Source: Acidobacteriota bacterium (GTDB lineage: Bacteria; Acidobacteriota; UBA890). Taken from it: DNA of 64,000 nt. The number at the start of each line of letters is the position of its first letter. Positions within the stretch are counted from its first letter, which is position 1. Shown in pieces: positions 18,082-37,957 of this stretch. The stretch is taken from NCBI GenBank assembly GCA_965216935.1, contig OZ244217.1:1018316-1082315 (forward strand), in the 5' to 3' direction. Under the pieces are notes generated by a model. It did no database searches. It worked only from the letters and a program-made list of their open reading frames with translations, and was not told where the DNA came from. The position numbers and the translations under genes are program-made.

Positions 18082-18220
18082 CGGGTGTGACCTCCTCTAC
18101 CGCAGCGCTCCGCAGACTCGAACCGGCGTCCCGAAAGCGCGTTTCAGCCTCGCTTCTGACCGCCGCCGGCCGGTTTTCAGCACGCGATCGCCAGGGCGTG
18201 GTGAATGGTACGCTTCGCGC

Positions 18221-20949: not shown

Positions 20950-22027
20950 GCTCGTGTCAGCTTCCGGTTCGTCCGCGTCGCCCGCATCGTCCGGGTCGGG
21001 TTCGTCCGCGTCGCTTGCTTCGTCCGCTTCGCCCGGTTCGTTCGCTTCGCCCGCATCCGAGGGCGGCGATCCGTCGGCTGTCGACTTGGCTCCCGAGAAC
21101 GGCCGGGCCGTCGTGCTCCTCGGGCCGCAGGGACGGCGGGAAACGCTCGCCGGCAAGCTCGACGAGCTCGGAGTGTCGGGAACCGTCGCCGTGGTCACCG
21201 CGGGGTGGCAGGAGCGGGAAGACGAGATCCTGGCGCTGCAGACCCACCTCGACAGGCCGATCGAGAACCTCCGCCTGCACGCGCGCGCCCGCGAGATCTT
21301 CACTCAGGACGAAGACCTGGGCGTGGCACACCGCCGGCGGCAGCGGACCCTCCGGCATCTGCGACGCCTGTACAACGTCCGCCTCTCCCATGCCATCGAC
21401 GCGCTTTCGGCCCTGGCCGGACGGCCGGAAGATTCTGATCTGGTCGAGGACGCGCGCGACGCCGCGATGGAGGCGGTGCGCCGGATCGACGACGATCATC
21501 TGGGTCGAATCGACCGAGTCCACCGGCGATGGGAAGAGGAGGGCCGGGTCGAGGCGAGCGCCGCGGTTGCCCGGCATCGCGAGGAGATCGCCGCGATCCT
21601 GTCGCGGTGCTCCGCCGTGGCCATCGCCGGAGGGCACGTCGTCGTCCTGCTCAACCGCTTGCGACTATTCGACGTCGCGTCGTTGGGGGCCGACCTCCCC
21701 CTGGTGGCGTGGTCCGCCGGTGCGATGGCGCTCACCGAGCGAGTCGTTGCCTACCACGACACGCCACCGCAGGGCTTCGGTAATCCCGAAGTGCTCGAGC
21801 GCGGCCTCGGTCTGGTGCGCGGCCTTGTTGCCCTGCCGCATGCGCGCCGCAGGCTGCTGCTCGACGACCGGGATCGCGTGGCGCGGTTCGCCCGGCGTTT
21901 CGCCCCGGCGCGGTGCGCCGCGATGGACGGAGGGTCGGCCCTGCGGTTCGCACCCGGATCGCCGGTTGTTGGCGAGGCTATCCGGGTGCTCGCGACGGAT
22001 GGCTCGCTCGGGAGCCTGGAGCCATGA
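20939..22027 (+). CDS. Peptidase S51-like serine peptidase (cyanophycinase / dipeptidase E family) with a Ser/Ala-rich low-complexity N-terminal region
   Basis: A GTG start at 20939 overlaps the end of ATP-grasp C. By manual comparison with cyanophycinase motifs, AIAGGHVVVLLNRLRL resembles the GG(D)..L.RL motif and LVAWSAGAMAL resembles GxSAGA around the Ser nucleophile. The first roughly 40 aa are SASGSSASPASSGSGSSASLASSASPGSFASPAS. The true start may lie downstream. Confidence 0.55.
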   Translation: MPTELVSASGSSASPASSGSGSSASLASSASPGSFASPASEGGDPSAVDLAPENGRAVVLLGPQGRRETLAGKLDELGVSGTVAVVTAGWQEREDEILALQTHLDRPIENLRLHARAREIFTQDEDLGVAHRRRQRTLRHLRRLYNVRLSHAIDALSALAGRPEDSDLVEDARDAAMEAVRRIDDDHLGRIDRVHRRWEEEGRVEASAAVARHREEIAAILSRCSAVAIAGGHVVVLLNRLRLFDVASLGADLPLVAWSAGAMALTERVVAYHDTPPQGFGNPEVLERGLGLVRGLVALPHARRRLLLDDRDRVARFARRFAPARCAAMDGGSALRFAPGSPVVGEAIRVLATDGSLGSLEP

Positions 22028-23184
22028 CGGACGCGACTCCCGCCCCCGCCCGGCGGGCCATTCGCAACCTCGAGCGAGCCGGCCCGCCGGCCGCCGCGGA
22101 CATCGACGCGTTCCTCGCCGGTCACGAGTTCCCGCTGGTCGAAGGCAACAGCGTTACGTTTGTTTTTCGCGGCGAGGTCGATGCGGTGGCGTTGCACCAC
22201 TGGATCTACGGGTTGCCGTCGTCGCAGGAGTTCCGCCGCATCGACGGTAGCGACCTGTGGTACCTGAGCCTCGAGCTGCCCCCCGGCTCCCGCGTCGAAT
22301 ACAAGCTCGAGGTCCGCACCGGTGACGACATTCGTCTGATCGAAGATCCGCTCAACCCGCGCCGGGCACGGGACCCCTTTGGCGCCAACTCGGTGTGCGC
22401 CACCGGCGGTTACGAGGATCCCGAATGGACCCGGGAAGACCCCGAAAGCAGGCCGGGTACACTCGAGCCCCGCCTCATTCGCAGCAATGCCTACGGCGGC
22501 GACGTCGCCGTGACGCTTTACCTGCCGGCGCGCTATCGGCCGACCGCGCGCTATCCGCTGCTGCTGGTGCACGACGGCAGCGACTACGTCAACTACGCCG
22601 GCCTCAAGACCGTCCTGGACAACGTCATTCATCGCCACGAGGTCGCTCCGCTGATTGCCGTGCTGATCGATTCGCCCACGCGCTTGCACGAGTTCGCCAA
22701 CCACGAGCCCCACGCGGTCTTTCTGGCCGAAGAGCTGGTGCCGCAGCTGCAGAAGGAATTGCCGCTGCGCGAGGGGCCCTTGTGGCGCTGCCTGATGGGG
22801 GCGAGCTTCGGGGCCGTGGCGGCGTTTTCCACCGCCTGGAGATATCCCGACGCGTTTGGCAGGCTGTTGCTGCAATCCGGGTCATTCGCGTTCTCCGACA
22901 TCGGCGGCCACGCCCGCGGCCCCGTTTTCGATCCGGTCGCGGATTTCGTCAACGCGTATCGGGACGACCCGGTTCGCGTGGCGGAGAAAGTGTTCATGAG
23001 CTGTGGCATGTACGAGTCGCTCATCTACGAGAACCGCTCGCTGGTACCCGTCTTGCGGGACACCGGAATGGACGTCCGCTATGTCGAGACGCGGGACGGG
23101 CACAACTGGGAGAACTGGCGCGGACGGCTCCGCGAGGCGCTCTCGTGGCTTTTCCCCGGGCCGCTGTGGATGTTCTATGAGTAG
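22024..23184 (+). CDS. Esterase family alpha/beta hydrolase (PF00756-like, enterochelin-esterase-like) with an N-terminal Ig/CBM-like domain
   Basis: The ATG at 22024 overlaps the upstream stop (ATGA). The N-terminal beta domain is VTFVFRGEVDAVALHHWIYGL...YKLEV. The hydrolase core is LLLVHDGSDYVNYAGLKTVLDNVIHRHEVAPLIAVLID...GASFGAVAAFSTAWRYPDAFGRLLLQSGSF. Confidence 0.65.
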   Translation: MTDATPAPARRAIRNLERAGPPAAADIDAFLAGHEFPLVEGNSVTFVFRGEVDAVALHHWIYGLPSSQEFRRIDGSDLWYLSLELPPGSRVEYKLEVRTGDDIRLIEDPLNPRRARDPFGANSVCATGGYEDPEWTREDPESRPGTLEPRLIRSNAYGGDVAVTLYLPARYRPTARYPLLLVHDGSDYVNYAGLKTVLDNVIHRHEVAPLIAVLIDSPTRLHEFANHEPHAVFLAEELVPQLQKELPLREGPLWRCLMGASFGAVAAFSTAWRYPDAFGRLLLQSGSFAFSDIGGHARGPVFDPVADFVNAYRDDPVRVAEKVFMSCGMYESLIYENRSLVPVLRDTGMDVRYVETRDGHNWENWRGRLREALSWLFPGPLWMFYE

Positions 23185-23280
23185 ACGGGTGGGGGGGCAG
23201 CGGCGCTGGCAGAGACGGCGACCCGGGCATGGCCCGCGACACGGGCAGGACCCGCGACGCACCGCTGGGAGTGGCGGCTG

Positions 23281-24543
23281 ATGGCGACCATCACCCGCCG
23301 CATCGGGCTTTCACTCGGCGCCGACATCTGCTGGCCGATCTGCTACGAGGAGATCCTCCGTCGGCTCGATCTGTCGATCCGGCACGACGGCGACACGCTG
23401 CGGTTCGAAACCGAACGGGTGACGATCGAGCCGTTCGACCTGCGGCAGTCGATCCGCTACGACCTGATCATCGATCGGCTGACGCACTGGTACAGTCCGA
23501 GCCGCGAGTGGATCAAGAAGTCGATCCTGCTGAACGACGTCTACGTGTACAACAACCCGTGGACCGTCCAGTCGATGGAAAAGCTGACGTCGTATTGCGC
23601 CATGATCCGCCTGGGCATGCCCATCCCGACGACCTGGATGGTACCGCCGAAGGAATACGCAACGCTCCCCGACCTGCGCCCGACCCTCGAGCAGTACGCC
23701 CGGTACTTCGACTTCGACGAGCTCGGCGAGAAGGTCGGCTACCCGATGTACATGAAACCGTACGACGGCGGTGGCTGGGTCGGCGTCAGTCGCATCGACG
23801 ATGCCAGCGGGCTGCGCGCCGCCTACGAGCAGAGCGGGTCTCACGTCATGCAGTTGCAGCGAGCGGTGCATCCGTCGGATCTGTTCGTCCGGGTCATCGG
23901 CCTCGGGCCGCAGGCTCGCATCGTTCGCTACGATCCCTCCCAGCCGCTGCACGATCGCTACACCATGGCGCGTGACTTCGTCAGCGACGAGGAAGCATCG
24001 TGGCTCATCGACACGACGATGACGATCAACGCCTTCTTCGACTGGGACTTCAACTCCTGCGAAGTCCTGCGGGACGAAGCCGGCGACCTCTTTCCGATCG
24101 ACTTCGCCAATCCGTGTCCCGACTCGCAGGTCACGTCGTTGCACTATCACTTTCCCTGGCTGATCAAGGCGAACCTGCGCTGGTCGCTGTTCAACGCCGC
24201 GGTGGCGAGAAAGAAGCCACCGAGCCTGAGCTGGGCACCCTTCTTTGAAATCGCTGCGCTCGAGATCCCCTATCGCGAGAAGCTGCGACGATACGCGCAC
24301 ATCGCCCGCGAGCGGTTCTCGAGCGATCGGTTCGAGGAGTTTTGCGATCGCCACCTGGCCCATCTCGATGAGGTCGCATGGGAGTTTTTCGGATCGCCCG
24401 CCACGCGTGACGCCGTGTACCAGAAGGTGAAGGCGCTCTACCCGGCCGACGAGGTTGACCGCTTCACCGAGCTGTTCATCGAGCGAATCGAGGTCTGGCG
24501 GGGCGCCGCCGAGAAGGAAGAGCCGGGGGCGGGCGTCCGGTGA
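23281..24543 (+). CDS. Hypothetical protein, possibly ATP-grasp fold (glutathionylspermidine synthase-like)
   Basis: A clear ORF with an ATG at 23281. The segment VGYPMYMKPYDGGGWVGVSRIDD recalls the ATP-grasp core of YgiC/GspS-family proteins (KPIFSREGANVSI). The assignment rests on manual motif comparison only. Confidence 0.4.
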   Translation: MATITRRIGLSLGADICWPICYEEILRRLDLSIRHDGDTLRFETERVTIEPFDLRQSIRYDLIIDRLTHWYSPSREWIKKSILLNDVYVYNNPWTVQSMEKLTSYCAMIRLGMPIPTTWMVPPKEYATLPDLRPTLEQYARYFDFDELGEKVGYPMYMKPYDGGGWVGVSRIDDASGLRAAYEQSGSHVMQLQRAVHPSDLFVRVIGLGPQARIVRYDPSQPLHDRYTMARDFVSDEEASWLIDTTMTINAFFDWDFNSCEVLRDEAGDLFPIDFANPCPDSQVTSLHYHFPWLIKANLRWSLFNAAVARKKPPSLSWAPFFEIAALEIPYREKLRRYAHIARERFSSDRFEEFCDRHLAHLDEVAWEFFGSPATRDAVYQKVKALYPADEVDRFTELFIERIEVWRGAAEKEEPGAGVR

Positions 24544-25268
24544 AGTCGAGCGAGACCTGGCATTCCGGGCGCCTGGAGCGTTCGGTGACGCTGGTTCGCT
24601 GGGGGCATTTCGGTGTGCCGGTGCTCATCTTCGCCACCGCCGGCGGCGACGCCGAGGAAATCGAACGCTTCCATCTCGTCGGGGCGCTCTCCGAGCTCAT
24701 CGAGGCCGGTCGCATCAAGGTCTACTCGTGCGACAGCGTCGCCGGCCGTGCGCTGATCACGCAGGAAGGCTCGGCCCAGCACCGGGGTTGGTTGCAGCAC
24801 CAGTTCCAGGAGTTCATCTACCATGAGGTCGTGCCGGCCATACGCACCGATTGCGCCGCCGAGGACATCGAGGTGATCGCGGCAGGCGCCTCGATCGGCG
24901 CGTTCCAGGCCCTCGCGGCGGTTTGCCGATACCCCGACACGTTCGCCAAGGCGCTCTGCGTCAGCGGCACGTACGACCTTTCTCGCTTTATCAAGGACGG
25001 CGACCCGGGTCGGTTCTTTCACGAATCGTCCCCGCTTCACTACCTGACGGACCTCGACGAGGATCGGCTGGAGGCGATCCGTCGCCGCTTCGTGCTTTTC
25101 GCCAGCGGCGAAGGTCGGGCCGAGGACATCGGCGAGTCGTGGCGGGCGGCGCACGTCCTGGGAAGCGCCGGCATTCCGAACCGGGTCGACAACTGGGGCC
25201 CGGAATGGGATCACGACTGGCCGACCTGGCGGGTGATGCTGCCCCAGTACCTTTCGGAGTGGACATGA
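24540..25268 (+). CDS. Esterase family alpha/beta hydrolase (PF00756-like)
   Basis: A GTG start overlaps the upstream stop (GTGA). The Ser motif is in AAGASIGAFQAL (GxSxG-like GASIG). It has the typical esterase-family length and segments (VYSCDSVAGRA, HYLTDLDEDRLE). Confidence 0.65.
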   Translation: MKSSETWHSGRLERSVTLVRWGHFGVPVLIFATAGGDAEEIERFHLVGALSELIEAGRIKVYSCDSVAGRALITQEGSAQHRGWLQHQFQEFIYHEVVPAIRTDCAAEDIEVIAAGASIGAFQALAAVCRYPDTFAKALCVSGTYDLSRFIKDGDPGRFFHESSPLHYLTDLDEDRLEAIRRRFVLFASGEGRAEDIGESWRAAHVLGSAGIPNRVDNWGPEWDHDWPTWRVMLPQYLSEWT

Positions 25269-25371
25269 GCGACGGCAGCGTTGAACGAGCCACCACCTCG
25301 AGAGCAGCCCGCAGCTCGATCTCGATGGTCCGCTGACGATCGCCGTCCGAGTCCGTGTCGACGAGCTCGGT

Positions 25372-25809
25372 TTGCACCAGCACCTGTTCGCTTGCGATGA
25401 CAAGTGGGCCCTGTGGATCACGCCCGACGATCGCTACCGCCTCGGCGACACCCGCGGTGGGGGTTGGTCCAGCGAGCCGGGCCGGGTACGGCGGGGCGAG
25501 TGGGCCGCCGTCGTGGCGGTGTTGCGGGGCACCCGTGGCGACCCGCTGACACCGCAGGCCGTATCGCTATACGTCGACGGCGACGGCAGCGCGGCGTCGA
25601 TGCATCAACGCACCGGCGAGGCGGTCGAGTTCGGCACCTGGAACCCGGGCGAGCTTTACCCGCGCGATGCCTGCTACATCGGCTTCGAGTCTCACCAGGG
25701 CATGGAGTCGCACCGCACGATGGCATTCATCGGAGCCATCGACGAAGCGATGGTGTTCGCCCGCGCCTGGAGCGAGGCCGAGGTGGTGGCGTTCTCGCCG
25801 CGTCGCTGA
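25372..25809 (+). CDS. Hypothetical protein (possible concanavalin/LamG-like fragment)
   Basis: A TTG-start ORF. An in-frame stop lies at 25282 and there is no ATG/GTG upstream. The C-terminus MAFIGAIDEAMVFARAWSEAEVVA resembles the LamG-like ...IDEVRIYNRALSAEEI ending. Confidence 0.35.
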   Translation: MHQHLFACDDKWALWITPDDRYRLGDTRGGGWSSEPGRVRRGEWAAVVAVLRGTRGDPLTPQAVSLYVDGDGSAASMHQRTGEAVEFGTWNPGELYPRDACYIGFESHQGMESHRTMAFIGAIDEAMVFARAWSEAEVVAFSPRR

Positions 25810-25902
25810 CCGGCGACCCGAAGAAAGGGTTGTTTGCGGCGGTGATGTCCTAGTAGCTTGGGACACGAAGCTTCGGAATCACCGCGACGCAAGGGGTCGG
25901 CG

Positions 25903-26910
25903 ATGACCGATGTTCCATCTGTAGCGCAGAGGATCCTGGACCAGCTCGAGCGGGCGATCTTCGGCAAGCGCGAGGCGCTCGAGCTCGTGCTCACCTGCCT
26001 TCTCACCGAGGGGCACCTGCTCATCGAGGACGTCCCCGGGACCGGCAAGACGCAGCTGGCGAAGGCCCTGGCGCGCATTTTCGGCGGCTCGTTTCGTCGA
26101 TTGCAGTGCACACCCGACCTTCTCCCGGCCGACATCACCGGATCGAACGTCTTCAACCAGAACAGCAACGAGTTCGAGTTCCATCCGGGGCCGGCGTTCA
26201 CCAACATTCTTCTGGCCGACGAGCTCAACCGCGCGACGCCGAGAGCCCAGGCAGCGTTGCTGGAATGTATGGCGGAACGCCAGATCAGTGTCGAGGGGCA
26301 GACGTACGAGCTGCAGCGCCCGTTCTTCGTCATCGCGACGCAGAACCCGGTCGAGCACGAGGGAACCTTCGACTTGCCGGAGGCGCAGCTCGACCGCTTC
26401 CTCATGCGGTTGGCCATCGGCTACCCGGACGAGGAGGCCGAGGAGACGATGCTCATCGAGCTCGATCGTCGCGACCTTCTGGAGGAGGTCGAGGAGGTTT
26501 CGACTCTCTCGGAGCTGATCGACCTGCAGGAAAGCGCCCGCTCGGTCCACGTCCACCCGGTCGTGCGCCAGTACATCATTCGCACGGTCGCGGCGACGCG
26601 CGAAAGCAAGGACTTCGCCCTCGGCGCCGGCCCGCGAGCCAGCATCGCCCTGTTTCGTTCGTGCCAGGCTCTCGCCGCGATCAGCGGCCGCAGCTTCGTG
26701 TTGCCGGACGACGCCAAGCGGCTCCTCCCTGTCGTGCTGCCGCACCGGCTCATTCTCTCGACCGAGGGACGCCTGAAGCGCCGCGGCGTGGTCGACGCCT
26801 TGCACGAGACGATCGATACGGTGCCGGCGCCGGTCGTCGGACCCGAAGGCATCGTGCAGCCGCCCCAGGACGCCGACGGGGACGACATGGCACGCCGGCG
26901 GAGTGGCTAG
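25903..26910 (+). CDS. MoxR-family AAA+ ATPase
   Basis: The N-terminus is MTDVPSVAQRILDQLERAIFGKREALELVLTCLLTEGHLLIEDVPGTGKTQLAKALA (Walker A GTGKT). The MoxR hallmark second region is present. The ATG is at 25903. Confidence 0.85.
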   Translation: MTDVPSVAQRILDQLERAIFGKREALELVLTCLLTEGHLLIEDVPGTGKTQLAKALARIFGGSFRRLQCTPDLLPADITGSNVFNQNSNEFEFHPGPAFTNILLADELNRATPRAQAALLECMAERQISVEGQTYELQRPFFVIATQNPVEHEGTFDLPEAQLDRFLMRLAIGYPDEEAEETMLIELDRRDLLEEVEEVSTLSELIDLQESARSVHVHPVVRQYIIRTVAATRESKDFALGAGPRASIALFRSCQALAAISGRSFVLPDDAKRLLPVVLPHRLILSTEGRLKRRGVVDALHETIDTVPAPVVGPEGIVQPPQDADGDDMARRRSG

Positions 26911-28297
26911 CCCGGGGGAGTCCCCGTCGAGCGACGCTCCGCGGCCTGAAGCCGCATCGCGTTCGTTCGCCGGCCTGGCGCGGTTGTTGCGCCGGCCCGT
27001 AGGAGACTTCTGGACCCGCTATACCCAGGTTGCCGTGTGGGGGGTCGTCGGCGTGCTGACAACACTGTTGCTCGCCGTCTTCTCTTCCGGCCTCTTCCTG
27101 TATGCCGTGTTGGTGGTCGGCATTGCCCTGGCCGCCTCGCTCTTGTTCGCCAGCGTCGCGGTCAGTCACCTGAGCGTGCAGCGAGAGGTGAGCGACGCCA
27201 CGGTGCCTGCCGGGCGGAGGGTAGACGTCACCTTGACGATCGAGAACCGGAAGCCGTTGCCGGTTCCCTGGCTCTACTGCGAAGACAAGGTCGAGGACGG
27301 CCTCGAGGTCGACGGCGGCACCGCGGTGTTGCAAACGCTGCCGGCCGAAGAGCGGCTGACTCTCAGCTACAAGGTCAGCGCGAATCGCCGAGGTCTGTAC
27401 CGCATCGGGCCGTCGATCGCCGAAGCGTCGGACCCGATGGGTTTGGTCCGCCGCTTCAAGACCGATCGACACCCGGAGTTCCTGACCGTCACCCCGAAAG
27501 TGCTCGGCCTCGGGTCCGGCTGGCCGCTGGGGCACAACGCCCTGCACCGCACGCCCCGCCGGCGGAGCTTGTTCGAAGATCCGTCGCGCTTCATCGGCAT
27601 CCGGGACTACCAGCCGTCGGACAGCATTCGACGGATCCACTGGCGGGCGACGGCGCGACTGGGCTCGTTGCAGGTGAAGACGTTCGAGCCGGCGGTGCTG
27701 CAGGGGGCGCTATTGATCGTCGACGGGGCGCCGAGCCCGGACGAGGAGCTGTTCGAGCTCACCGTCACGACGGCCGCGTCGGTCGCCGACTACGTTCTCT
27801 TTCAGGGACAGAAGGTCGGCTTGCTGTCGAACGGAGGCGACGCGGCCGAGCGATACCCACGCGACTGGTCGGGCGAGACGTTCCGCCGCATCGAGGACGT
27901 CGTCGAACGAACCGAGGCGCGCGAGGCGCTCAGCGGCTTTCGGCCGCTGGAGCTGCGTCCCGGGCGGGGCGACGGGCAGCGGTCGATGGTCCTGGCGGCG
28001 CTGGGTCGCCTGGTGCCGGCCTCCGGCGTGACCCTGGCGCAGTTGCTCGAAGTAGAGATGCCGCGCATACCCCGAAGCCTGGTTGCCATCGTCGTTACCC
28101 GAGCAATCGACGACGAGCTGGTCTTTGCCCTGGACGGTCTGCGTCGTGCCGGCGTCGAGTCGTCGGTGATGTGGATTCGGCCCGGAGAGCCGTCGCCGGC
28201 CTCGGAGGCCGTCTTCCCCGTCTTGCCGCCCGGCGTCACGTTCCACGCGATTTCCGACGAGGCGCACCTCGAGGACCTGGGAGCGCAGACGCTATGA
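26903..28297 (+). CDS. DUF58 domain protein (MoxR partner)
   Basis: The start overlaps the moxR end. The DUF58 signature is FIGIRDYQPSDSIRRIHWRATARLGSLQVKTFE. There are two N-terminal TM helices. Confidence 0.8.
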   Translation: MASPGESPSSDAPRPEAASRSFAGLARLLRRPVGDFWTRYTQVAVWGVVGVLTTLLLAVFSSGLFLYAVLVVGIALAASLLFASVAVSHLSVQREVSDATVPAGRRVDVTLTIENRKPLPVPWLYCEDKVEDGLEVDGGTAVLQTLPAEERLTLSYKVSANRRGLYRIGPSIAEASDPMGLVRRFKTDRHPEFLTVTPKVLGLGSGWPLGHNALHRTPRRRSLFEDPSRFIGIRDYQPSDSIRRIHWRATARLGSLQVKTFEPAVLQGALLIVDGAPSPDEELFELTVTTAASVADYVLFQGQKVGLLSNGGDAAERYPRDWSGETFRRIEDVVERTEAREALSGFRPLELRPGRGDGQRSMVLAALGRLVPASGVTLAQLLEVEMPRIPRSLVAIVVTRAIDDELVFALDGLRRAGVESSVMWIRPGEPSPASEAVFPVLPPGVTFHAISDEAHLEDLGAQTL

Positions 28298-29874
28298 GCA
28301 AGTGCCAGCTCCATCCGTTCACCGAGGCCACGCACCGGTGCACCGGCTGTGAGCGGCCGCTGTGCGAGGAGTGCGGCACCCGGCTGAGCTATTGCGGGGC
28401 ATGCGGCGCCCCGGTGGTGCGCGAGGGCGAGGAGGCACCCGAGCACTGGTTCGACGAGCTGTTCGAGAAGGTCTCGCTACGCACCGGGGAGGGCGACCTG
28501 TTCGCCTTCGTCATGCTGCACGTCGTGGTTCCCGCCGCCATCATCGGGATGGTCTATGCCTTCCTCTTCTACCTCCTGCTGGTGCGCTCGATCTTTTTCG
28601 GCAATACCGGCGTGCTGCAGTGGGTCGGGTTCCTTTTCATCTTCGCCACCGTGCTGACGGCGCGGTACGGCCGGACGCGGGGAGACAAGGCGACGCAGGC
28701 CCTGTATTCGATCGTGCTGTTCGCCGCGACGAGTATGGCGATGGTCACCCGCTCGCCGACCACCGCGTCGGCCGTCGCGAACATCGTCATGCTCGGCGTC
28801 GTCTGGCTGTACGCCACCGGGGTGACGCTGGCGCTCAGCCTGGAGGGCAAAGGCGAGACGTCGACGCGCGGGGCGGTGGCACCGGTCGTCGGCCTCGGTG
28901 TGCTCGCCATGCTGGTGTTCGCCGCCGGCGAGCCGTTCATGCTCAACGCCAGCCCGGAGATCGCCATCCAGGCGATTCTGGCGATCATCTCGTTCCTGCT
29001 GTTCACCGGTGTGGCGTTGGCCGCGGCGTCGACCGTGTCGCAGGCGCGCCGCGCATATCGCACGGGGGGCGACGTCTCCCTCGGGGTGATCCGGCAGCGC
29101 ATTGGTGCGGCTGCACTGGTCGTGCTGCTCGTCATCGGCCTCGGGTTGGCGATCCCCGGGGTCGAGTATTCCGGGAGCGGCAGGCTGGAGCTGGCCCCCG
29201 ACGACCTGCTGCAGCAACGCCGCATGCAACGTGGCTACGACGCGACGGCCGGAGCTCTCGGCGAGGCGCTGGCAGGTGGGCTGCCGTGGGGCTGGTTGTC
29301 GGGCTTCGAGTCGCTGACACGGAGCTCCGGGCAGGGAGCGGCGGCGTTCGCCGCGGTTCGGTTCCTGCAGTTTTTCGGCCTGATGGTCGCGCTTCTGGTC
29401 GTAGTTGCGGCCGTGGGCCTGGCGGTGCGGCAACGGGCGGACGTGTTCGGCCGGTTGGCGCCGGGTGTCCGGCGGGTCCTCGATTGGCTGCAGGCCCGCC
29501 TGGCCCGGAGCTTGCCGTCGTGGCCGAGGCGAGGTGGCGGCACCCGCGAGCAGCGAATCACCGATCCGTTTGCCGGGCTCGACGCGCTTGGGGCGCGGCC
29601 GGCGCGGGAAGCCGTGATGGAGGTCTACGTGCGCTCGACGGTCCTCCTCGAAGGCCTGGGGTACCCGCGGCCCGCCGCGGCAACGCCCTTCGACCTGCTC
29701 GGCGCCTTGCCCGATCGCCTCGCCTACCTCGGCGACCCGCTGCGCGATATCACCGGGTTGTATGTCCGGGCGGCGTACAGCAACGAGGAGATGCGCCCGG
29801 CCGATCGCGACGGCGCGCTTGCCACGCTGCGGACCTTGCGCGACCGGATCTCGGAGCGAACCGACGATGCGTGA
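28294..29874 (+). CDS. Polytopic membrane protein with an N-terminal zinc-ribbon and a C-terminal DUF4129-like domain
   Basis: The ATG at 28294 overlaps the upstream stop (ATGA). A Cys4 cluster CTGCERPLCEECGTRLSYCGACG is followed by multiple hydrophobic helices. The C-terminus DPFAGLDALGARPAREAVMEVYVRSTVLLEGLGYPRPAAATPFDLL... resembles DUF4129, which often follows MoxR/DUF58. The upstream part of the 27037..29874 ORF is rejected. Confidence 0.65.
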   Translation: MSKCQLHPFTEATHRCTGCERPLCEECGTRLSYCGACGAPVVREGEEAPEHWFDELFEKVSLRTGEGDLFAFVMLHVVVPAAIIGMVYAFLFYLLLVRSIFFGNTGVLQWVGFLFIFATVLTARYGRTRGDKATQALYSIVLFAATSMAMVTRSPTTASAVANIVMLGVVWLYATGVTLALSLEGKGETSTRGAVAPVVGLGVLAMLVFAAGEPFMLNASPEIAIQAILAIISFLLFTGVALAAASTVSQARRAYRTGGDVSLGVIRQRIGAAALVVLLVIGLGLAIPGVEYSGSGRLELAPDDLLQQRRMQRGYDATAGALGEALAGGLPWGWLSGFESLTRSSGQGAAAFAAVRFLQFFGLMVALLVVVAAVGLAVRQRADVFGRLAPGVRRVLDWLQARLARSLPSWPRRGGGTREQRITDPFAGLDALGARPAREAVMEVYVRSTVLLEGLGYPRPAAATPFDLLGALPDRLAYLGDPLRDITGLYVRAAYSNEEMRPADRDGALATLRTLRDRISERTDDA

Positions 29875-31258
29875 GCCCGCGATGCGACGGTTCCTTGCCG
29901 GCCTGGCCATCCTCGGGTTGGTCGTGTCTGCAATGGGGTGCGACATCGACACCGACTTCGCCGACAACCTGGTCGATCAGACGGCCGACCGTAACCGGCG
30001 CCGGGCGTTGGAGATGCAGCGCCGGGAGCTGCCGCTCCCGGACCCGGACGAGATCGACTACATCGCCGTGATTCCCGAACAGATCGAGCCGACGGAGGAT
30101 TTCGTGGTCAGCTTCGTCGACGACCTGGTCGTCGGCGACGACGAGGACGAGCCGAAGGCGTTGTTCACCACGTTCATCGGTCGGGCCTCGGCGCTCGGCA
30201 ACGTCGCTGTCGGTGCCGACGGCCGCATCTATGTCCTCGAGACGCGTTCCGACGAGGTGCGTGTCTTCGATCCCGAGGGCGGCTTCCTGTTCGCGTTCGG
30301 GCAGCCGGGCGAAGGTCCGGGGGACTTCAACGCGCCGTTCGGGTTGAACCTCGCCGGCGACCGGGTGCACGTGCACCATCGTCGCTTCTATTCCAGCATC
30401 TGGGATTTGGAAGGGAACTTCCTCCGCGACCGGCAGACCCTTCGGACCCCCGAGGCGCTCGAGGCCGAACGTCTCGATGCGTCCAGCAGCGGAACGAACG
30501 CCACGAGCGCGTCCGAAGCGCGGCGGCGCGACCTGGCGCAGCGATTCCGAACGCCCTCATGGGTGCACGGTCGCCCCGACGGTTCGATGGTGATGGTGAC
30601 CCATGCCCGGCCGTCGGAGAGCCGCGGACGCATCGCGACATCGTACGTCGTGGTCGTCGGGCGCTACGAGGACGGGGCCGAGGCGCAGCGTTACCTCGAG
30701 GCGCCCGATTGGGCTACGCCGTCCGTGGCGGTCGCCCCGGACGGCGGCGTCTACGTGGCGTTGTTCGGTCACCTCCGTACCGAGTACTACCTGCTGTCTC
30801 TCGACCCCGCCGGGGAGCCGCGCTGGGTGTTGACGATTCCTTGGGACACGGACACGCCGCCTCGAGCCGACCTGCGTGTCGACGAGCAGGGACGGCTGTT
30901 CGTCATGCCGAACTTTCTCCTCCCGGCCGAGCTCTTCGCCCCGAAGACGGCGGAGGGTGCCGCCGAAGCGAAAGACGATCTTCGCGATGCGTTCACCGGG
31001 GGTGTCACCGGAGAGACCCTTCGGGCCGTGGGCATTCGCCCTCCGGTTCAGGTCTACTCCCGCGATGGCGAGATCATCGGCTCCGGATACCTCGATCGTT
31101 ACCCGACGCACCTTCACTGGCAGACTGCTGCCGGCGATCGCGTCTATGGCGTACGGGTGAATCCGGATTCGGGCGAGTGGGAGGTGGTTCGCTACCGGTT
31201 GGAGGCGCGCCGCGAGCGGCCCGACGCCGATCCCGGGCTGGACTTCCCGGAGCGCTGA
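29867..31258 (+). CDS. NHL-repeat / 6-bladed beta-propeller lipoprotein
   Basis: The ATG at 29867 overlaps the previous gene by 8 nt. The N-terminus MRRFLAGLAILGLVVSAMGCDID is lipoprotein-like. The NHL-like repeats are GRIYVLETRSDEVRVFDPEGGFLFAFGQPGEGPGDFNAPFGLNLAGDRVHV. Confidence 0.65.
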   Translation: MREPAMRRFLAGLAILGLVVSAMGCDIDTDFADNLVDQTADRNRRRALEMQRRELPLPDPDEIDYIAVIPEQIEPTEDFVVSFVDDLVVGDDEDEPKALFTTFIGRASALGNVAVGADGRIYVLETRSDEVRVFDPEGGFLFAFGQPGEGPGDFNAPFGLNLAGDRVHVHHRRFYSSIWDLEGNFLRDRQTLRTPEALEAERLDASSSGTNATSASEARRRDLAQRFRTPSWVHGRPDGSMVMVTHARPSESRGRIATSYVVVVGRYEDGAEAQRYLEAPDWATPSVAVAPDGGVYVALFGHLRTEYYLLSLDPAGEPRWVLTIPWDTDTPPRADLRVDEQGRLFVMPNFLLPAELFAPKTAEGAAEAKDDLRDAFTGGVTGETLRAVGIRPPVQVYSRDGEIIGSGYLDRYPTHLHWQTAAGDRVYGVRVNPDSGEWEVVRYRLEARRERPDADPGLDFPER

Positions 31259-31485
31259 TCTCCGGAATCCCGCGCCCGCCCACCCGGAAGGCGAAGCATC
31301 TATCTTTCGACGCTGTGCCCCGGTGCCCTCTCGCGCAACCGAGACGCCCGGAGTAGGCTTCCGGCGCTGGTTCTCATCGAGCCGAACGGCCGGTGACCGG
31401 CGTGTGTGGAAGCGCGCCCGGGCGTGGGCGAGGCCGGAGGCGCCACCGGGCAACGGCGGGGTCGAGGCCGCAACGAGGGAGGCGG

Positions 31486-33024
31486 GACGTGTCGGGAACC
31501 GAAGAGCGCCATCCGAACGGCAGGCTTCACGGCGGCCTCCATCTCGCCATCCGGGTCGGCGTTACGTCGGCCTGCCTCGCGGGCGTCATGGCCATCGTGG
31601 CCCCCGCGGGTGTGCAGGGTAGCGCGGATCTCGCGGGCGCCACCGGTTTCGTAGGCGTTACCGGCGTTGCCGAAGCCCAGCAGCGTCCCGACTACTGCGC
31701 CGTGGAGACACCCGGCGCGCGGGTGGAGATCGTCCGGCCCGGCGACGATGAGCCGCCGATCGACGACGTCAACTGGTTTGCTCGCCCGGTGCCGAATGTC
31801 GAAGGCGATCTGATCATCGGCTTCGCCAGCCACGATGAGAACTACCTCTACAACCTGACCCGTGGCGCCAGGATCCGCATCCCCGACGCGTCGGACGCCG
31901 TGGCGACACCCGACGGTCGCTACATGACGGTGCCCGGCAACTACACGCCGGACGGCACGGTGCGTTTCTACGACCTGCCCGAGCTTCTCGATGCTTTGCG
32001 CCGCGGTGAAGACGCAGCAGGCGCCGAGCCGGTGTTCGTCCACCGGGACGAGACGCTCCGCGGCGCCTATTACCAATCGGTCGGCGTGGTCGGAGGCGCG
32101 GAGGCGCCGCGGGCGTCGCTCGATCCGGTCCACCACACGACCTACCGGATGATCTTCTCCGGGAATCCCGACCCGACGGGTTTCCGCATGGTCGACTACG
32201 AGTTCTCGCGCACGGAGGCGGGCCTGCAGGTGACGCCGAGCGCGCCGATGAAGATCTGTCCCGCCTTGGTGCGCAACGACTTCAACACGCCGTTCATCTC
32301 CAAGGACGGGCGCTACGTCGCCGCCTACACGAGCTCACGGCCGGACCGCGCCTACACCGATGGCTCCTCGCTGCGGATCTTCGAGATTACCGGCACCGAT
32401 CCGGGCGCCGGCACGTCGATGTGCGTGGAGCGGGTAGATTTCGGCTTTCCCGCCGGAAAGGCCGACTTCAGCTTCGATGGGGACTATCTGACGTTTCACA
32501 TCGCCCAGAGCCGCTACCTGGTGCCGTTCGTCAACGGTGGCCTCGATGCCCCGGTCATGACCGATGTCGTGGTTGCGGAGCTCGAGCGGGATGCCGGCGG
32601 CAGCATCGTCGGATACGGCGATTTGGCGCGGGTCACGACCTCGCAGACCGGCGGGGTCGGCAGCTACTTTCCGGCGTTCTTTCCCGACGGGCGGCTCTTC
32701 TACATTCACAACGAGCAGCCGAAACAGAGCGAGGGCGAAAAGCGGTTCCATTTCGTCGTGGTCGAGCCGGCGGCGGAGCTCTACATCGCCAATCTGTTCG
32801 CCGATCCCGAGGCGGCGGCCGCCGCCGGGAGCATCGGTCGTATGTGGCACGCGGCCTGCACGCCGGGCGACCCGCCGTTGACGGATGTCGAAGCTCCCTG
32901 GCTCTTGATGAGCCTCAGCCAGCCGCAGTGCACCGCGCTGGTGCGCGACAACTGGAAGGGGCCGGACGCCGAGGCGAGCTACCTGGAAAGCTCCTGCGCG
33001 AAGCTGTCGATGAACTCCAGGTAG
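31486..33024 (+). CDS. Hypothetical secreted protein, beta-propeller-like
   Basis: A GTG at 31486 gives a signal-like LHLAIRVGVTSACLAGVMAIVAPAGVQG. There are TolB/PD40-like repeats (ISKDGRYVAAY, FFPDGRLFYIH). The start is uncertain (ORF track 31393). Confidence 0.5.
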   Translation, partial: DVSGTEERHPNGRLHGGLHLAIRVGVTSACLAGVMAIVAPAGVQGSADLAGATGFVGVTGVAEAQQRPDYCAVETPGARVEIVRPGDDEPPIDDVNWFARPVPNVEGDLIIGFASHDENYLYNLTRGARIRIPDASDAVATPDGRYMTVPGNYTPDGTVRFYDLPELLDALRRGEDAAGAEPVFVHRDETLRGAYYQSVGVVGGAEAPRASLDPVHHTTYRMIFSGNPDPTGFRMVDYEFSRTEAGLQVTPSAPMKICPALVRNDFNTPFISKDGRYVAAYTSSRPDRAYTDGSSLRIFEITGTDPGAGTSMCVERVDFGFPAGKADFSFDGDYLTFHIAQSRYLVPFVNGGLDAPVMTDVVVAELERDAGGSIVGYGDLARVTTSQTGGVGSYFPAFFPDGRLFYIHNEQPKQSEGEKRFHFVVVEPAAELYIANLFADPEAAAAAGSIGRMWHAACTPGDPPLTDVEAPWLLMSLSQPQCTALVRDNWKGPDAEASYLESSCAKLSMNSR

Positions 33025-33776
33025 CCCTCGACCGCGCGGGCTCCGGGGAGCACGGGGCCGACGAGCTTTCCGCGCCCGAACAGCTGCACCGACGGGGCGT
33101 GCCCGGTGAAGCCGCGGAACAGCAACTCCACGGAGGCGACCGGGCGCAGTGCGGCAGGGGGGAGCCCGGCGGATTCGGCCGCCGTGCGAGCGAAGGAGAT
33201 ATCGGATGCCGGGTCCAGCACCGGGATCAGGTCGAGATCCCGAGCGTCCGCCGCGGCGGTAATCGCGCCGAACGCCTCGACGGAGAACCGCATGTGCGGC
33301 GACCACAAGTAGAAGACGCCGGGGCGCCCGTCGCCGATCGCGGCCTCGAGGGCCTCGTCGGTGAGGCCGCGCGCGATGGTGTCGGGGGAGAAGGGTCCTG
33401 TTTCCGATCGGCTGATCGGTGCGCAGGAGGAACCCCAGCGGACGCGCTCGACGCCGTCCGCCTCCACCCGGGACGCTTCGATCTCGCCGCTTTCCGTTGC
33501 GGTCAGCGTCAGCCAGGCCCCGCGTCGCGATGTTCGGACCCGATACGAGGCTGCGTGCGATCCCGCCAGGGGCGCGGCGCTCGTCGCGATCTCCGCTGCC
33601 GCCCGCGCTCTCAGCCAGGCGAGAGCTTGTTCGCCGCAGCGAGCGCTTGCGGTGATGTCCGTGATCGGGATCTGTCGAAGGCCCGCGTCCTGTGATTCGT
33701 TGTCCGGGGAGGTGAAGCCGAAAAGCACCGTACCCGACACCAGGGCGATGCACACGTGCCGGAGCCGACGGGTCAT
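32979..33776 (-). CDS. Hypothetical protein
   Basis: The start overlaps the ankyrin gene stop by 4 nt on the same strand, suggesting translational coupling. It has a hydrophobic N-terminus. There is a 46-nt convergent overlap with the 31486..33024 ORF. Confidence 0.45.
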   Translation of the reverse strand: MTRRLRHVCIALVSGTVLFGFTSPDNESQDAGLRQIPITDITASARCGEQALAWLRARAAAEIATSAAPLAGSHAASYRVRTSRRGAWLTLTATESGEIEASRVEADGVERVRWGSSCAPISRSETGPFSPDTIARGLTDEALEAAIGDGRPGVFYLWSPHMRFSVEAFGAITAAADARDLDLIPVLDPASDISFARTAAESAGLPPAALRPVASVELLFRGFTGHAPSVQLFGRGKLVGPVLPGARAVEGYLEFIDSFAQELSR

Positions 33777-34552
33777 GAGTCGTTTGCCGGCGGTTCGGCG
33801 GCGCCGCCGTCCAGGAGCTCGATGAGCTCGCTTGGTCCACCCGAACGGGCGAGGTCGAGCGGCGTCAAGCCGTCCTCGTTGCGAACAGCCGGATCGGCGC
33901 CCGCTGCCAGCAGGAGCCCGGCGAGGTCCGCCCGCTGCAGCCTCGCGGCGTGGTGCAGCGGCGTCATCCCTTGGTTGTCGGCCCGATGCGGATCGGCGCC
34001 GGCGTCCAGCAGCAGCTGTGTCATGGCGAGGTCGCCGGCGTTGATCGCGATGCTCAACGCCGTCTGGTGACCATAGGTGTAGTTGGTATCGGCACCGTGA
34101 GTTTCCACCAGGCGGCTCGCCAGTTGAACCTGGCCGTGCTGAGCCGCCGTCATCAGCGCCGATGCCCGGTTGCCCCCCGGTGGGTCCACCGCAACGCCGG
34201 CCTCGAGCACACGGGCGAGCAGGTCGATGTTGCCGGCGCGGGCGATGCTGTTGAGCGATGCGGAGCGGATGTCGGCGCCGGCCGCAACCAGAGCGTCGAA
34301 GACTTCATTGCCCCGGCAATCCGCCACCTGCAGCGCCGTCACCCCGGCGGAACTCCGTGCCTTCGCCACGGCACCGGCCTCGAGCAGCAGCGCGACCAGC
34401 TCGAGGTCCCCTTGCCGCGCGGCGCTCATCAGAGGCGTGAAGCCGAAGTCGTCGGAGGACGTATTCGGGTGGGCGCCCTCGGCGATCGCCCTTTTCGCGC
34501 GGCGGATGTCGCCCTTGTTGCAGGCGTCCAGCAGCTCTTCGTCAGGGTTCAT
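33773..34552 (-). CDS. Ankyrin repeat protein
   Basis: There are about 7 ankyrin repeats with the characteristic G-TPLH-AA-G-LVALLLEAGAD pattern (GFTPLMSAARQGDLELVALLLEAGA, GMTPLHHAARLQRADLAGLLLAAGADP). Confidence 0.8.
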   Translation of the reverse strand: MNPDEELLDACNKGDIRRAKRAIAEGAHPNTSSDDFGFTPLMSAARQGDLELVALLLEAGAVAKARSSAGVTALQVADCRGNEVFDALVAAGADIRSASLNSIARAGNIDLLARVLEAGVAVDPPGGNRASALMTAAQHGQVQLASRLVETHGADTNYTYGHQTALSIAINAGDLAMTQLLLDAGADPHRADNQGMTPLHHAARLQRADLAGLLLAAGADPAVRNEDGLTPLDLARSGGPSELIELLDGGAAEPPANDS

Positions 34553-34626
34553 GGCGGTCTATACCGAACTTCCGCACACGCTTGATTGCGGCGTGCGCCG
34601 GGTGCCGGCGCACCGGGGGAGGCGGC

Positions 34627-35067
34627 CTACACCAGGTCGTGTTCTTCGAGGAGGCGTCGAGCGCGTGCCAGCCCGACGATCTCCGCCAGCCGCCGGGCTT
34701 CGAGCGTGGCCGCCTCGTGCCCGGCTTGGGTAATCCGATAGTACCGTCGGCGCTCATCGTCCTCTTCCGTTGCCGGGCGTTTCGACGATACGTCGATCAG
34801 TCCGTCGTTACGCAGGCGCTTGATCGAACGGTACAGGGTCCCGGGGGGCAGGCGCATCTCTCCGCGCGTGGCCGCCTCGACGAACTGCATGATGCCGTAG
34901 CCGTGGCGTTCGCCGTCGGCGAGCGCCATCAGGATGTGGAACATCGCCGGCGTCAGCTCGATGCGCGCCCTCGCGTCCTCGCGACGACCGCTCGTGTCGC
35001 CGCTGCCCGGGTGATCGCTTTTCGGCCGTTTGTCGTCGCTGGGCGTCATGGCCACCTCCTCCGTCAT
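34627..35067 (-). CDS. PadR family transcriptional regulator
   Basis: The winged-HTH PadR signature is MFHILMALADGERHGYGIMQFVE...GTLYRSIKRLRNDGLI. Its start overlaps the stop of the upstream permease by 4 nt. Confidence 0.8.
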   Translation of the reverse strand: MTEEVAMTPSDDKRPKSDHPGSGDTSGRREDARARIELTPAMFHILMALADGERHGYGIMQFVEAATRGEMRLPPGTLYRSIKRLRNDGLIDVSSKRPATEEDDERRRYYRITQAGHEAATLEARRLAEIVGLARARRLLEEHDLV

Positions 35068-37925: not shown

Positions 37926-37957
37926 GGATACATTAGCCGGAAGGCCAGGTCAAGGAC

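What the first reader, a model, noticed from the sequence alone, without database searches (positions are those of the whole stretch)
25903..31258. MoxR - DUF58 - zinc-ribbon/DUF4129 polytopic membrane protein - NHL lipoprotein operon with consecutive start/stop overlaps
Seen in sequence. There are four genes with overlaps of 8, 4 and 8 nt (26903/26910, 28294/28297, 29867/29874), implying tight translational coupling. Established knowledge: MoxR AAA+ ATPases pair with DUF58 (a vWA-like fold) proteins, and often with DUF4129 or transglutaminase-like proteins, as chaperone-like maturation systems. Seen in sequence: the third protein combines a cytoplasmic Cys4 zinc ribbon, about 8 predicted TM segments and a DUF4129-like C-terminus. 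The fourth is an NHL-propeller lipoprotein. Inference: the NHL lipoprotein may be a dedicated periplasmic client or partner of this MoxR module. A second NHL lipoprotein paralog (37958..39166) sits next to a DUF4097 protein elsewhere.
Basis: partly seen in the sequence, partly recalled or inferred. Interest (0 to 1): 0.5.

Follow-up and report, generated by a model that had tools for sequence, protein, structure and literature searches.

The report
MoxR membrane operon with propeller lipoprotein
An uncultured soil-type Acidobacterium carries a common but poorly understood three-gene ATPase/membrane-protein cassette to which one lineage has added a tightly coupled gene for a periplasmic propeller lipoprotein, a modest new variant that shows the cassette with and without an outside partner.

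Summary
Four same-strand genes (25903-31258) overlap by 8, 4 and 8 nt. They encode a MoxR AAA+ ATPase (AAA_3), a DUF58 protein with an N-terminal TM hairpin, a polytopic protein (G3) and a lipoprotein (G4). G3 has a B-box-like 8-ligand zinc finger, 8 TM helices and a DUF4129 C-terminus. G4's AlphaFold model is a six-bladed NHL-type propeller.

MoxR-DUF58-G3 is conserved across Acidobacteriota (42 loci). G4 follows G3 only in one lineage, but there in every assessable locus (17 of 17), down to 35% G4 identity, usually with an in-frame start overlapping the G3 stop.

G4-bearing loci also share an LPWGW motif in G3's only sizeable periplasmic loop (14 of 14 with G4, 0 of 22 without; one evolutionary split). 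G4 has a conserved helix after the lipid-anchor Cys that its paralogs lack.

G4 has a Sec/lipoprotein signal with no conserved twin-arginine. A cytoplasmic MoxR "client" role is therefore unlikely, and a periplasmic partner of G3 fits better. The function of the cassette remains unknown.

Verdict: a new variant of a known kind, of moderate-to-low interest.

The parts
25827..25866 (+). Conserved upstream element. It comprises GGGTTGTTT (25827-25835), a 15-nt gap, TAGTAG (25851-25856), and the palindrome TGTCC-N10-GGACA (25846-25865). Probable promoter/operator of the operon.
   Evidence: This is the only conserved block in otherwise unalignable intergenic DNA of four lineages. The exact pattern lies upstream of MoxR in L001, L029, L031 and L037 only. 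It is unique in the window, with 0.01 matches expected by chance. Function is inferred, not shown.
25903..26910 (+). G1: MoxR (MRP-type) AAA+ ATPase, 335 aa.
   Evidence: AAA_3 at 1.9e-61 and AAA_lid_2 at 1.3e-19. Best solved relative is 2r44 at 3.6e-65. Walker A (GTGKT), Walker B (LLADE) and EAQLDRF are visible in the translation. AAGGGG lies 8 nt upstream of the ATG.
26903..28297 (+). G2: DUF58 protein, 464 aa, with an N-terminal TM hairpin (about residues 44-90). The MIDAS motif is not canonical (DGAPS).
   Evidence: DUF58 at 4.6e-12. Hydropathy. The MIDAS position reads D-G-A-P-S/T/V/C in the close clade and E-M-G-K/R in the distant clade. No solved relative. GTG 26903 overlaps the G1 stop by 8 nt; relatives have ATGA there.
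28294..29874 (+). G3: polytopic membrane protein, 526 aa. Order of parts: cytoplasmic zinc finger, 8 TM helices, cytoplasmic DUF4129 helical bundle.
   Evidence: DUF4129 at 2.3e-9. AF2 helices at 69-102, 106-128, 132-153, 157-181, 195-217, 221-256, 264-286 and 344-380. Positive-inside count. Family size: 3399 representatives at E<=1e-3. No solved relative.
28303..28404 (+). G3 residues 4-37: B-box-like binuclear zinc finger (C4-x2-H7, C16-x2-C19, C24-x2-C27, C34-x2-C37).
   Evidence: Sub-threshold zf-B_box at 0.0042. All eight ligands are conserved in close orthologs and in those distant members that have the domain.
29152..29322 (+). G3 residues 287-343: loop between TM7 and TM8, predicted periplasmic. 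It carries the LQQRR and GLPWGWLSGFES motifs.
   Evidence: AF2 pLDDT is below 50 here. The LPWG[WF] motif is present in 14 of 14 assessable loci with G4 and in 0 of 22 without. In G4-less relatives the loop is replaced by low-complexity sequence.
29867..31258 (+). G4: lipoprotein, 463 aa. It has a signal peptide with lipobox (residues 1-25, Cys25 at 29939-29941), a conserved post-Cys helix and PLPDP linker (residues 26-60, 29942-30046), and a six-bladed NHL-like propeller (about residues 110-446).
   Evidence: Invariant Cys and Asp/Asn at +2 in 19 orthologs; the N-terminal stretch is the most conserved part. AF2 model. NHL-domain fold matches. Homology to paralogs starts only at about residue 110.

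Best explanation
The locus is one transcription unit that encodes a membrane-bound MoxR (MRP-type) AAA+ module.

Shown by sequence, models and comparison:
- G1 is a catalytically competent MoxR ATPase.
- G2 is a DUF58 (vWA-like) protein held at the membrane by a TM hairpin.
- G3 is an 8-TM protein. Both of its large soluble parts, the N-terminal B-box-like zinc finger and the C-terminal DUF4129 bundle, face the cytoplasm.
- The G1-G2-G3 triad is conserved across Acidobacteriota.
- In one lineage a fourth gene, G4, is translationally or transcriptionally coupled to G3. G4 is exported by the Sec/lipoprotein route.

Inferred:
- G4 is tethered by its lipid anchor (Asp/Asn at +2) near the inner membrane.
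- G4 docks through its lineage-specific conserved helix (residues 26-60) onto G3's only sizeable periplasmic loop (the LPWGW motif).
- The NHL-like propeller then supplies a periplasmic binding platform.
- ATP-driven remodelling of G3's cytoplasmic domains by MoxR, with DUF58 as adaptor, would be linked across the membrane to a periplasmic binding event.

The direction of coupling and the ligand are unknown. G4 is therefore best read as a dedicated periplasmic partner of G3, not as a substrate of the ATPase.
For: - Gene identities.
- Start/stop overlaps.
- Triad conserved in 27 genome loci, with G4 only in the close clade.
- G3 then G4 in the same order in all 17 loci where it can be assessed, including the divergent L050 (G2 52% identity, G4 35%).
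- An in-frame ATG or GTG overlaps the G3 stop in 8 of 9 loci examined. A-ending codons are rare at this GC3, so ATGA is unlikely to arise by chance.
- A conserved promoter/operator-like block lies upstream of G1 only. There is no intergenic space before G4.
- The loop motif co-occurs perfectly with G4.
- G4's most conserved segment is the post-Cys helix, which paralogs lack.
- The +2 residue is Asp/Asn in all G4 orthologs and Ser in the paralogs NHL2 and P0028.
- Identity falls from inside to outside: G1 84-92%, G2 70-77%, G3 61-74%, G4 47-60%. This is as expected for an exposed partner.
- Precedents exist for extracytoplasmic proteins encoded with MoxR-vWA/DUF58 modules: EsrA (bioRxiv 10.64898/2026.09.08.750141) and FN3 in the bifidobacterial PFNA cluster (as summarised in PMC12067865).
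Against: - No physical interaction was tested. AlphaFold-multimer was not available.
- The loop-motif/G4 co-occurrence reflects a single phylogenetic split, so it counts as one event.
- The loop is predicted with low confidence (pLDDT below 50).
- The +2 Asp retention rule comes from Enterobacteria (my own knowledge) and is untested in Acidobacteriota.
- In some lineages the overlapping start would give a 38-91-residue signal peptide. The true start may then lie 20-190 nt downstream. Translational coupling is firm only in the window, L001, L048, L049 and L050.
- The biochemical role of any MRP-type MoxR-DUF58-DUF4129 cassette is unknown.
Confidence: 0.45

Rival explanations
1. Passenger gene. 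G4 is an independent periplasmic binding protein or enzyme of the acidobacterial NHL/DUF5128 lipoprotein family. It landed downstream of G3 and shares its transcript without any functional link to the MoxR module.
For: - G4 belongs to a multi-copy family. The window has NHL2, the same genome has a third paralog P0029, and L042 has three tandem copies.
- The triad works without G4 in most Acidobacteriota.
- The slot after G3 is variable in other lineages: a beta-lactamase-type lipoprotein, an FG-GAP protein, or convergent genes.
Against: - Adjacency and same-strand tight spacing persist down to 35% G4 identity without exception.
- ATGA-type overlaps are retained.
- G4 has an N-terminal module that paralogs lack.
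- G3's periplasmic loop changed in step with G4.
Confidence: 0.25
2. Client. MoxR and DUF58 act as a chaperone for maturation or export of the NHL lipoprotein, as reported for MoxR1 and RipA in Mycobacterium tuberculosis.
For: - MoxR ATPases are regarded as chaperone-like.
- MoxR1 was reported to be needed for Tat export of RipA, which is encoded next to the moxR operon (Bhuwan 2016, as cited in PMC12067865).
- The window's own G4 has an RR pair in its signal peptide.
Against: - The RR pair is not conserved. Orthologs P0002, P0004, P0005, P0015, P0016 and P0024 have one Arg or none before the hydrophobic core. Export is therefore by Sec/signal peptidase II, in an unfolded state.
- The triad exists without G4 in most relatives, so G4 cannot be its primary substrate.
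- The G3 loop co-variation points to a periplasmic contact, not a cytoplasmic one.
Confidence: 0.12
3. Conflict or defence system of the MoxR-vWA ternary type, or membrane-proximal proteolysis of the MoxR-vWA-TGL type.
For: - Weak bpMoxR Pfam hit for G1 (4.3e-8).
- A propeller is encoded in the operon.
- G3 has the same 8-TM plan as the YebA-like TGL proteins, with an insert site between TM7 and TM8 (PMC3495828).
Against: - AAA_3 scores 206 bits against 33 bits for bpMoxR.
- No propeller is fused to the vWA protein, and there is no VMAP, iSTAND, FtsH or effector domain (definitions in PMC7159879).
- No PADLOC match for G2-G4.
- No Transglut_core in G3 or in 10 longer relatives, so no peptidase is present.
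- The locus is in stable chromosomal synteny, not on a variable island.
Confidence: 0.08

Closest known systems
MoxR-Proper (MRP) operons: MoxR - DUF58 - membrane protein with transglutaminase-like/DUF4129 domains. Sources: Snider & Houry 2006, as cited in PMC12067865; the 'MoxR-vWA-YebA-like TGL' three-gene operon of Zhang & Aravind 2012, PMC3495828.
   Same: AAA_3 MoxR followed by DUF58 and then an 8-TM protein ending in DUF4129. The three genes are tightly coupled. The cassette is widespread and of unknown biochemical function.
   Different: G3 has no transglutaminase-like core, and neither do 10 relatives checked. It carries an N-terminal B-box-like zinc finger instead. The DUF58 MIDAS motif is degenerate. 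A fourth gene for a periplasmic NHL-like lipoprotein is appended in one lineage.
Esr threat-sensing pathway of Actinomycetales (bioRxiv 10.64898/2026.09.08.750141) and the bifidobacterial PFNA cluster (summarised in PMC12067865; primary paper PMC8430577 listed but not read).
   Same: An extracytoplasmic protein (the beta-propeller/Ig-repeat sensor EsrA, or FN3) is encoded together with MoxR, a vWA/DUF58 protein and a membrane protein of the TGase/DUF4129 type.
   Different: Those are monoderm systems with a WD40-class propeller on a long stalk. They also have a catalytic transglutaminase, Ser/Thr kinase, phosphatase and FHA outputs. None of these is present in or next to this operon.
Beta-propeller-containing MoxR-vWA ternary conflict systems (Kaur et al. 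2020, PMC7159879; Pfam bpMoxR PF20030).
   Same: MoxR, a vWA-like protein and a beta-propeller are encoded in one neighbourhood, with a membrane link.
   Different: There the propeller is fused to the vWA protein, and a third TPR + propeller component is present. Here the propeller is a separate secreted lipoprotein, and the ATPase is the classical AAA_3 type.
Mycobacterial ripAB-moxR1-DUF58-vWA neighbourhood (MoxR1-dependent RipA export; PMC12067865).
   Same: An exported envelope protein is encoded beside a MoxR-DUF58 operon.
   Different: RipA is a Tat substrate and an NlpC/P60 hydrolase encoded upstream. G4 is a Sec-type lipoprotein propeller encoded last, and the third gene there is a vWA membrane protein rather than DUF4129.
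DUF5128/DUF4221 six-bladed propeller exported proteins (PF17170; PDB 3s9j, 4raa) and NHL-repeat propellers.
   Different: G4 adds a conserved helix-PLPDP module of about 85 residues after the anchor, plus two helical inserts. It is the only subfamily found linked to a MoxR operon.

Membership tests
MoxR AAA+ ATPase, MRP subfamily | AAA_3 ATPase core with intact Walker A/B and an AAA lid | tested here: met
   AAA_3 at 1.9e-61 and AAA_lid_2 at 1.3e-19. GTGKT, LLADE and EAQLDRF are present in the translation. 2r44 at 3.6e-65.
MoxR AAA+ ATPase, MRP subfamily | Adjacent downstream DUF58 gene | tested here: met
   DUF58 at 4.6e-12, overlapping the G1 stop. Conserved in all 42 loci examined.
vWA co-chaperone (as partner of MoxR) | MIDAS motif DxSxS | tested here: not met
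   The position reads DGAPS in the window, D-G-A-P-S/T/V/C in the close clade and E-M-G-K/R in the distant clade.
MoxR-vWA-YebA-like TGL membrane system (PMC3495828) | Eight-TM protein | tested here: met
   Eight long helices in the AF2 model. Hydropathy gives 7 peaks plus one weaker.
MoxR-vWA-YebA-like TGL membrane system (PMC3495828) | Transglutaminase-like peptidase domain between TM7 and TM8 | tested here: not met
   No Transglut_core hit in G3 at E<=0.1 or in 10 longer family members. The loop is 57 residues. Remote homology of the TM region to DUF3488 was not tested.
DUF4129-containing proteins | C-terminal DUF4129 domain above the Pfam threshold | tested here: met
   37.6 bits against a 24.8 cut-off, residues 445-513. 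Helical bundle 437-525 with pLDDT about 80-93.
Beta-propeller MoxR-vWA ternary conflict system (PMC7159879) | Beta-propeller fused to the vWA component, and a third TPR + propeller protein | tested here: not met
   G2 has only DUF58. G4 is a separate lipoprotein. There is no TPR component in the operon.
Beta-propeller MoxR-vWA ternary conflict system (PMC7159879) | bpMoxR-type ATPase | tested here: inconclusive
   PF20030 scores 32.9 bits (cut-off 27), but AAA_3 scores 206 bits on the same region. No phylogeny was made.
Esr pathway (bioRxiv 10.64898/2026.09.08.750141) | Ser/Thr kinase, phosphatase, FHA protein and transglutaminase in the cluster | tested here: not met
   None found among genes from 13083 to 47301.
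NHL-repeat / DUF5128 six-bladed propeller | Sequence match above the Pfam gathering score | tested here: not met
   DUF5128 at 22.6 against 22.9 bits; NHL at 17.3 against 20. Several orthologs do carry a precomputed PF17170 hit.
NHL-repeat / DUF5128 six-bladed propeller | Six-bladed propeller fold | tested here: met
Bacterial lipoprotein (signal peptidase II substrate) | Signal peptide ending in a lipobox with invariant Cys | tested here: met
   ...VVSAMG-C25 in the window. Cys is invariant and the lipobox-like context is present in 19 orthologs and in L050. Lipidation itself cannot be tested here.
Tat-exported protein | Conserved twin-arginine motif in the signal peptide | tested here: not met
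   RR is present in the window but absent in at least 6 orthologs.
Known anti-phage defence systems (PADLOC 2.0) | Match of any component to a defence-system model | tested here: not met
   Only trivial P-loop hits for G1. Nothing for G2-G4.

The most novel reading that the evidence does not exclude
The four proteins form a trans-envelope signalling device of a kind not yet described in diderm bacteria. The NHL-like propeller lipoprotein would sense a periplasmic ligand or envelope state. It would transmit this through the LPWGW loop of the 8-TM protein to that protein's cytoplasmic B-box zinc finger and DUF4129 bundle. The state of those domains would be read or reset by the MoxR-DUF58 ATPase pair. 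This would be a Gram-negative, kinase-free analogue of the actinobacterial Esr threat-sensing pathway. The G4-less relatives would then represent the 'sensorless' core.
Probability: 0.15. Interest if true: 0.7.

Novelty: new variant of a known kind. Interest (0 to 1): 0.35.

Why it matters
MRP-type MoxR-DUF58-TGase/DUF4129 cassettes are among the most widespread prokaryotic operons without a known mechanism. No DUF58 protein or DUF4129 membrane protein of this family has a solved structure. This acidobacterial lineage provides a natural pair: the same cassette with and without a dedicated periplasmic lipoprotein, together with a matching change in the only periplasmic loop of the membrane subunit. 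That yields a concrete, testable interface. It also suggests that the polytopic DUF4129 protein is the hub connecting the cytoplasmic ATPase to the envelope. If the interface is confirmed, it would give the first handle on what these cassettes act on. If it is not, this is simply a lineage-specific operon extension.

Tried and rejected
1. TGL-less derivative idea. I asked whether G3 is a YebA-like transglutaminase protein that lost its TGL domain. The profile search found 3399 relatives. The 10 longer ones I scanned have only DUF4129. The idea is not supported, and remote TM homology to DUF3488 was not tested.
2. 'Rosetta stone' B-box + NHL fusion. P0031 has both domains but is a low-GC, TRIM-NHL-like protein that looks eukaryotic. 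Rejected as irrelevant.
3. Tat export of G4. The RR pair is not conserved.
4. Defence system. PADLOC gave nothing.
5. Fold search of G3 against the PDB gave no match with E<=0.001 (best E about 1.3). The afdb50 library was unavailable.
6. Sigma-70 and terminator scans of 25000-33200 gave nothing above the shuffle expectation. Rfam and tRNA scans of the window were empty.
7. Exact look-ups of P0001 and P0015 for genome context failed. Cluster look-up gave no names or accessions. The organism is therefore placed only as Acidobacteriota, from the titles of related loci.
8. P0053 looked like a G3 protein with a C-terminal extension. It is a frameshifted assembly running from G3 into G4.
9. I first took P0029 to be the window's NHL2. 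It is a third paralog elsewhere in the genome.

Full report
**Observation**

The window is 66-70% G+C. ORF listing and a GC3 filter give four consecutive + strand genes:
- G1, 25903-26910
- G2, 26903-28297
- G3, 28294-29874
- G4, 29867-31258

Reading the junctions directly confirms overlaps of 8 nt (GTG 26903 against TAG 26910), 4 nt (ATGA at 28294-28297) and 8 nt (ATG 29867 against TGA 29874). A GGAG lies 10 nt upstream of the G4 ATG. A second ATG at 29882 would give a 7-nt gap instead. Either way there is no room for an intergenic promoter.

**Gene identities**

*G1* is a classical MoxR:
- AAA_3 at 1.9e-61 and AAA_lid_2.
- Closest solved relative is 2r44 at 3.6e-65.
- Walker A and B are intact.

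*G2* is a DUF58 protein:
- DUF58 at 4.6e-12, with an N-terminal hydrophobic hairpin.
- Its MIDAS position is degenerate: DGAPS here and EMGK/R in distant relatives.

*G3* is a polytopic membrane protein:
- C-terminal DUF4129 at 2.3e-9, and a sub-threshold B-box hit at the N-terminus.
- The finger has eight conserved ligands (CxxH, CxxC, CxxC, CxxC), not four.
- The AF2 model (pLDDT 69) shows eight long helices and a confident C-terminal helical bundle. It also shows a 57-residue low-confidence loop between TM7 and TM8.
- K+R counts favour an N-in/C-in topology. That makes the TM7-8 loop the only sizeable periplasmic segment (inference).
- G3 has no solved relative.

*G4* is a lipoprotein with a propeller:
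- Pfam gives only sub-threshold NHL/DUF5128 hits.
- The AF2 model built from 19 orthologs (pLDDT 76, pTM 0.77) is a six-bladed propeller. Its best matches are NHL domains and Bacteroides DUF4221/DUF5128 exported proteins.
- The lipobox Cys25 is invariant.

**Distribution**

A genome-collection scan with a G3 alignment returned 27 loci, all Acidobacteriota by record title. MoxR-DUF58-G3 is present wherever the contig reaches upstream, in the same order and tight spacing. A G4 homolog follows G3 only in the two closest loci.

In the others the next gene is convergent or unrelated. Examples are an ECF-sigma-like gene, a beta-lactamase-type lipoprotein, an FG-GAP protein and a PIN protein.

A metagenome scan with a G4 alignment, four exact-protein look-ups and the two close genome loci give 17 loci where a G4 ortholog has upstream DNA. 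G3 precedes G4 in all of them.

These include L050, a deeper branch with G2 at 52% identity, the best G3 segment at 50% and G4 at 35%. L050 still has 4-nt overlaps by the source's own gene calls. L051, at a similar G2 distance, lacks G4.

At 50% clustering the G4-bearing lineage is essentially one cluster. The family has at least 100 clusters at E<=1e-30 and 3399 at E<=1e-3. The triad is therefore the conserved unit and G4 is a lineage-specific addition.

**Coupling**

In 8 of 9 loci examined, an in-frame ATG or GTG overlaps the G3 stop by 4 nt. The G1/G2 and G2/G3 junctions are ATGA throughout.

There is a caveat. In some lineages that start would give a signal peptide of 38-91 residues, so the real start may lie 20-190 nt downstream. 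Same-strand adjacency within 190 nt or less is universal. Strict translational coupling is secure in the window, L001, L048, L049 and L050.

Upstream of G1, four lineages share a block of about 40 nt that is otherwise unalignable: GGGTTGTT, then N15, then TAGTAG, overlapped by the palindrome TGTCC-N10-GGACA. It occurs only there in the loci and once in the window, against 0.01 expected by chance. I read it as the operon's promoter/operator. This is inference.

**Link between G3 and G4**

- G4-bearing loci share the motif LPWG[WF] in the TM7-8 loop of G3: 14 of 14 with G4 and 0 of 22 without. G4-less relatives have low-complexity sequence there, plus a basic insert in the cytoplasmic loop between TM4 and TM5. 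This split is a single evolutionary event, so it is suggestive and not statistical.
- G4's most conserved stretch is the roughly 35 residues after the lipid-anchor Cys, of the form C-[DN]-x-D-T-D-F-A...TAERN...QQRxELPLPDP.
- Homology to paralogs begins only at about residue 110. Paralogs lack this module and have Ser at +2, where G4 has Asp/Asn.
- In Enterobacteria Asp at +2 retains lipoproteins in the inner membrane. This is my own knowledge and is untested in this phylum.
- Sequence identity within the clade falls from G1 (84-92%) through G2 (70-77%) and G3 (61-74%) to G4 (47-60%).

**Mechanism**

I commit to G4 as a dedicated periplasmic partner of G3. This extends a membrane-bound MoxR-DUF58 remodelling module across the inner membrane (confidence 0.45).

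G4's signal is Sec/SPII-type and the twin-arginine is not conserved. The triad also persists without G4.
- A passenger-gene reading remains plausible (0.25).
- Conflict-system and TGL-protease readings fail their defining features. There is no propeller-vWA fusion, VMAP or effector domain (PMC7159879). There is no PADLOC hit and no transglutaminase core (PMC3495828).

**Comparison with known systems**

- The triad is an MRP-type MoxR operon, a known kind (PMC12067865, PMC3495828).
- The closest functional analogies for an extracytoplasmic partner are the Esr pathway (bioRxiv 10.64898/2026.09.08.750141) and the PFNA cluster (as summarised in PMC12067865). This locus lacks their kinase, phosphatase, FHA and TGase parts.
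- Full-text searches found no paper holding both DUF4129 and MoxR, and only two holding DUF4129 at all.

**Context of the second NHL paralog**

In relatives G4 is followed by a convergent ortholog of the window's DUF4097 gene (39255-40163), and then by an ortholog of 41228-42127.

The window carries about 8 kb of extra DNA between G4 and DUF4097. It holds a 543-aa secreted protein, a 265-aa protein, an ankyrin protein, PadR, an ADOP-type MacB-like permease and NHL2.

NHL2 is therefore part of a lineage-specific block. It is not a sister of the MoxR-linked gene.

**Verdict**

This is a new variant of a known kind. Interest is 0.35.

Noticed in passing
window 31259-39254: About 8 kb is present in the window but absent from 8 or more related loci, where G4 lies directly convergent to the DUF4097 ortholog. 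It holds a 543-aa secreted protein with no Pfam hit (31393-33024, repeated 'DGR[YL]' motifs, possibly another propeller), a 265-aa unknown, an ankyrin-repeat protein, PadR, a 953-aa duplicated MacB/FtsX (ADOP-type) permease, and the NHL paralog 37958-39166. No flanking repeats were looked for.
   Followed up: partly
window 25827-25866; L001 585-605; L029 3776-3796; L031 3907-3927; L037 3130-3150: A conserved promoter/operator-like block with the palindrome TGTCC-N10-GGACA lies upstream of moxR in the G4-bearing clade only. More distant loci show TAGAAT/TAGAGT-like motifs at a similar distance instead.
   Followed up: partly
L009 9587-14492 (Holophagales MAG): Here the MoxR-DUF58-G3 triad is followed on the same strand by a beta-lactamase-family lipoprotein (27-nt gap), a small vWA protein, a PP2C phosphatase and a protein-kinase-like gene. 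This is reminiscent of the kinase/phosphatase parts of the Esr and PFNA clusters.
   Followed up: no
L042 845-4824: Three tandem NHL2-like lipoprotein paralogs lie on one metagenome contig. The same genome as the window also has a third paralog (P0029, 402 aa) outside the window. The NHL/DUF5128 lipoprotein family is expanded in these Acidobacteriota.
   Followed up: no
P0053 (681 aa, ENA contig of 22.6 kb): This database protein appears to be G3 fused to extra sequence. It is a frameshifted assembly that runs from G3 into fragments of G4. It is an annotation artefact, but it is again consistent with G3-G4 adjacency.
   Followed up: yes
window 15549-18081 (-) and 13083-15464 (-): Two tandem ATP-grasp (L-amino-acid-ligase-like) genes sit next to a 793-aa FG-GAP repeat protein. 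The glycogen-synthase ORF 17402-19726 overlaps the first ATP-grasp ORF, so its true start must lie further downstream.
   Followed up: no
window 20939-25809: Upstream of the operon lie a peptidase S51-like gene, two putative esterases (one with an enterochelin-esterase N-domain), a 420-aa unknown and a LamG-like fragment. None of them is conserved upstream of moxR in relatives.
   Followed up: partly
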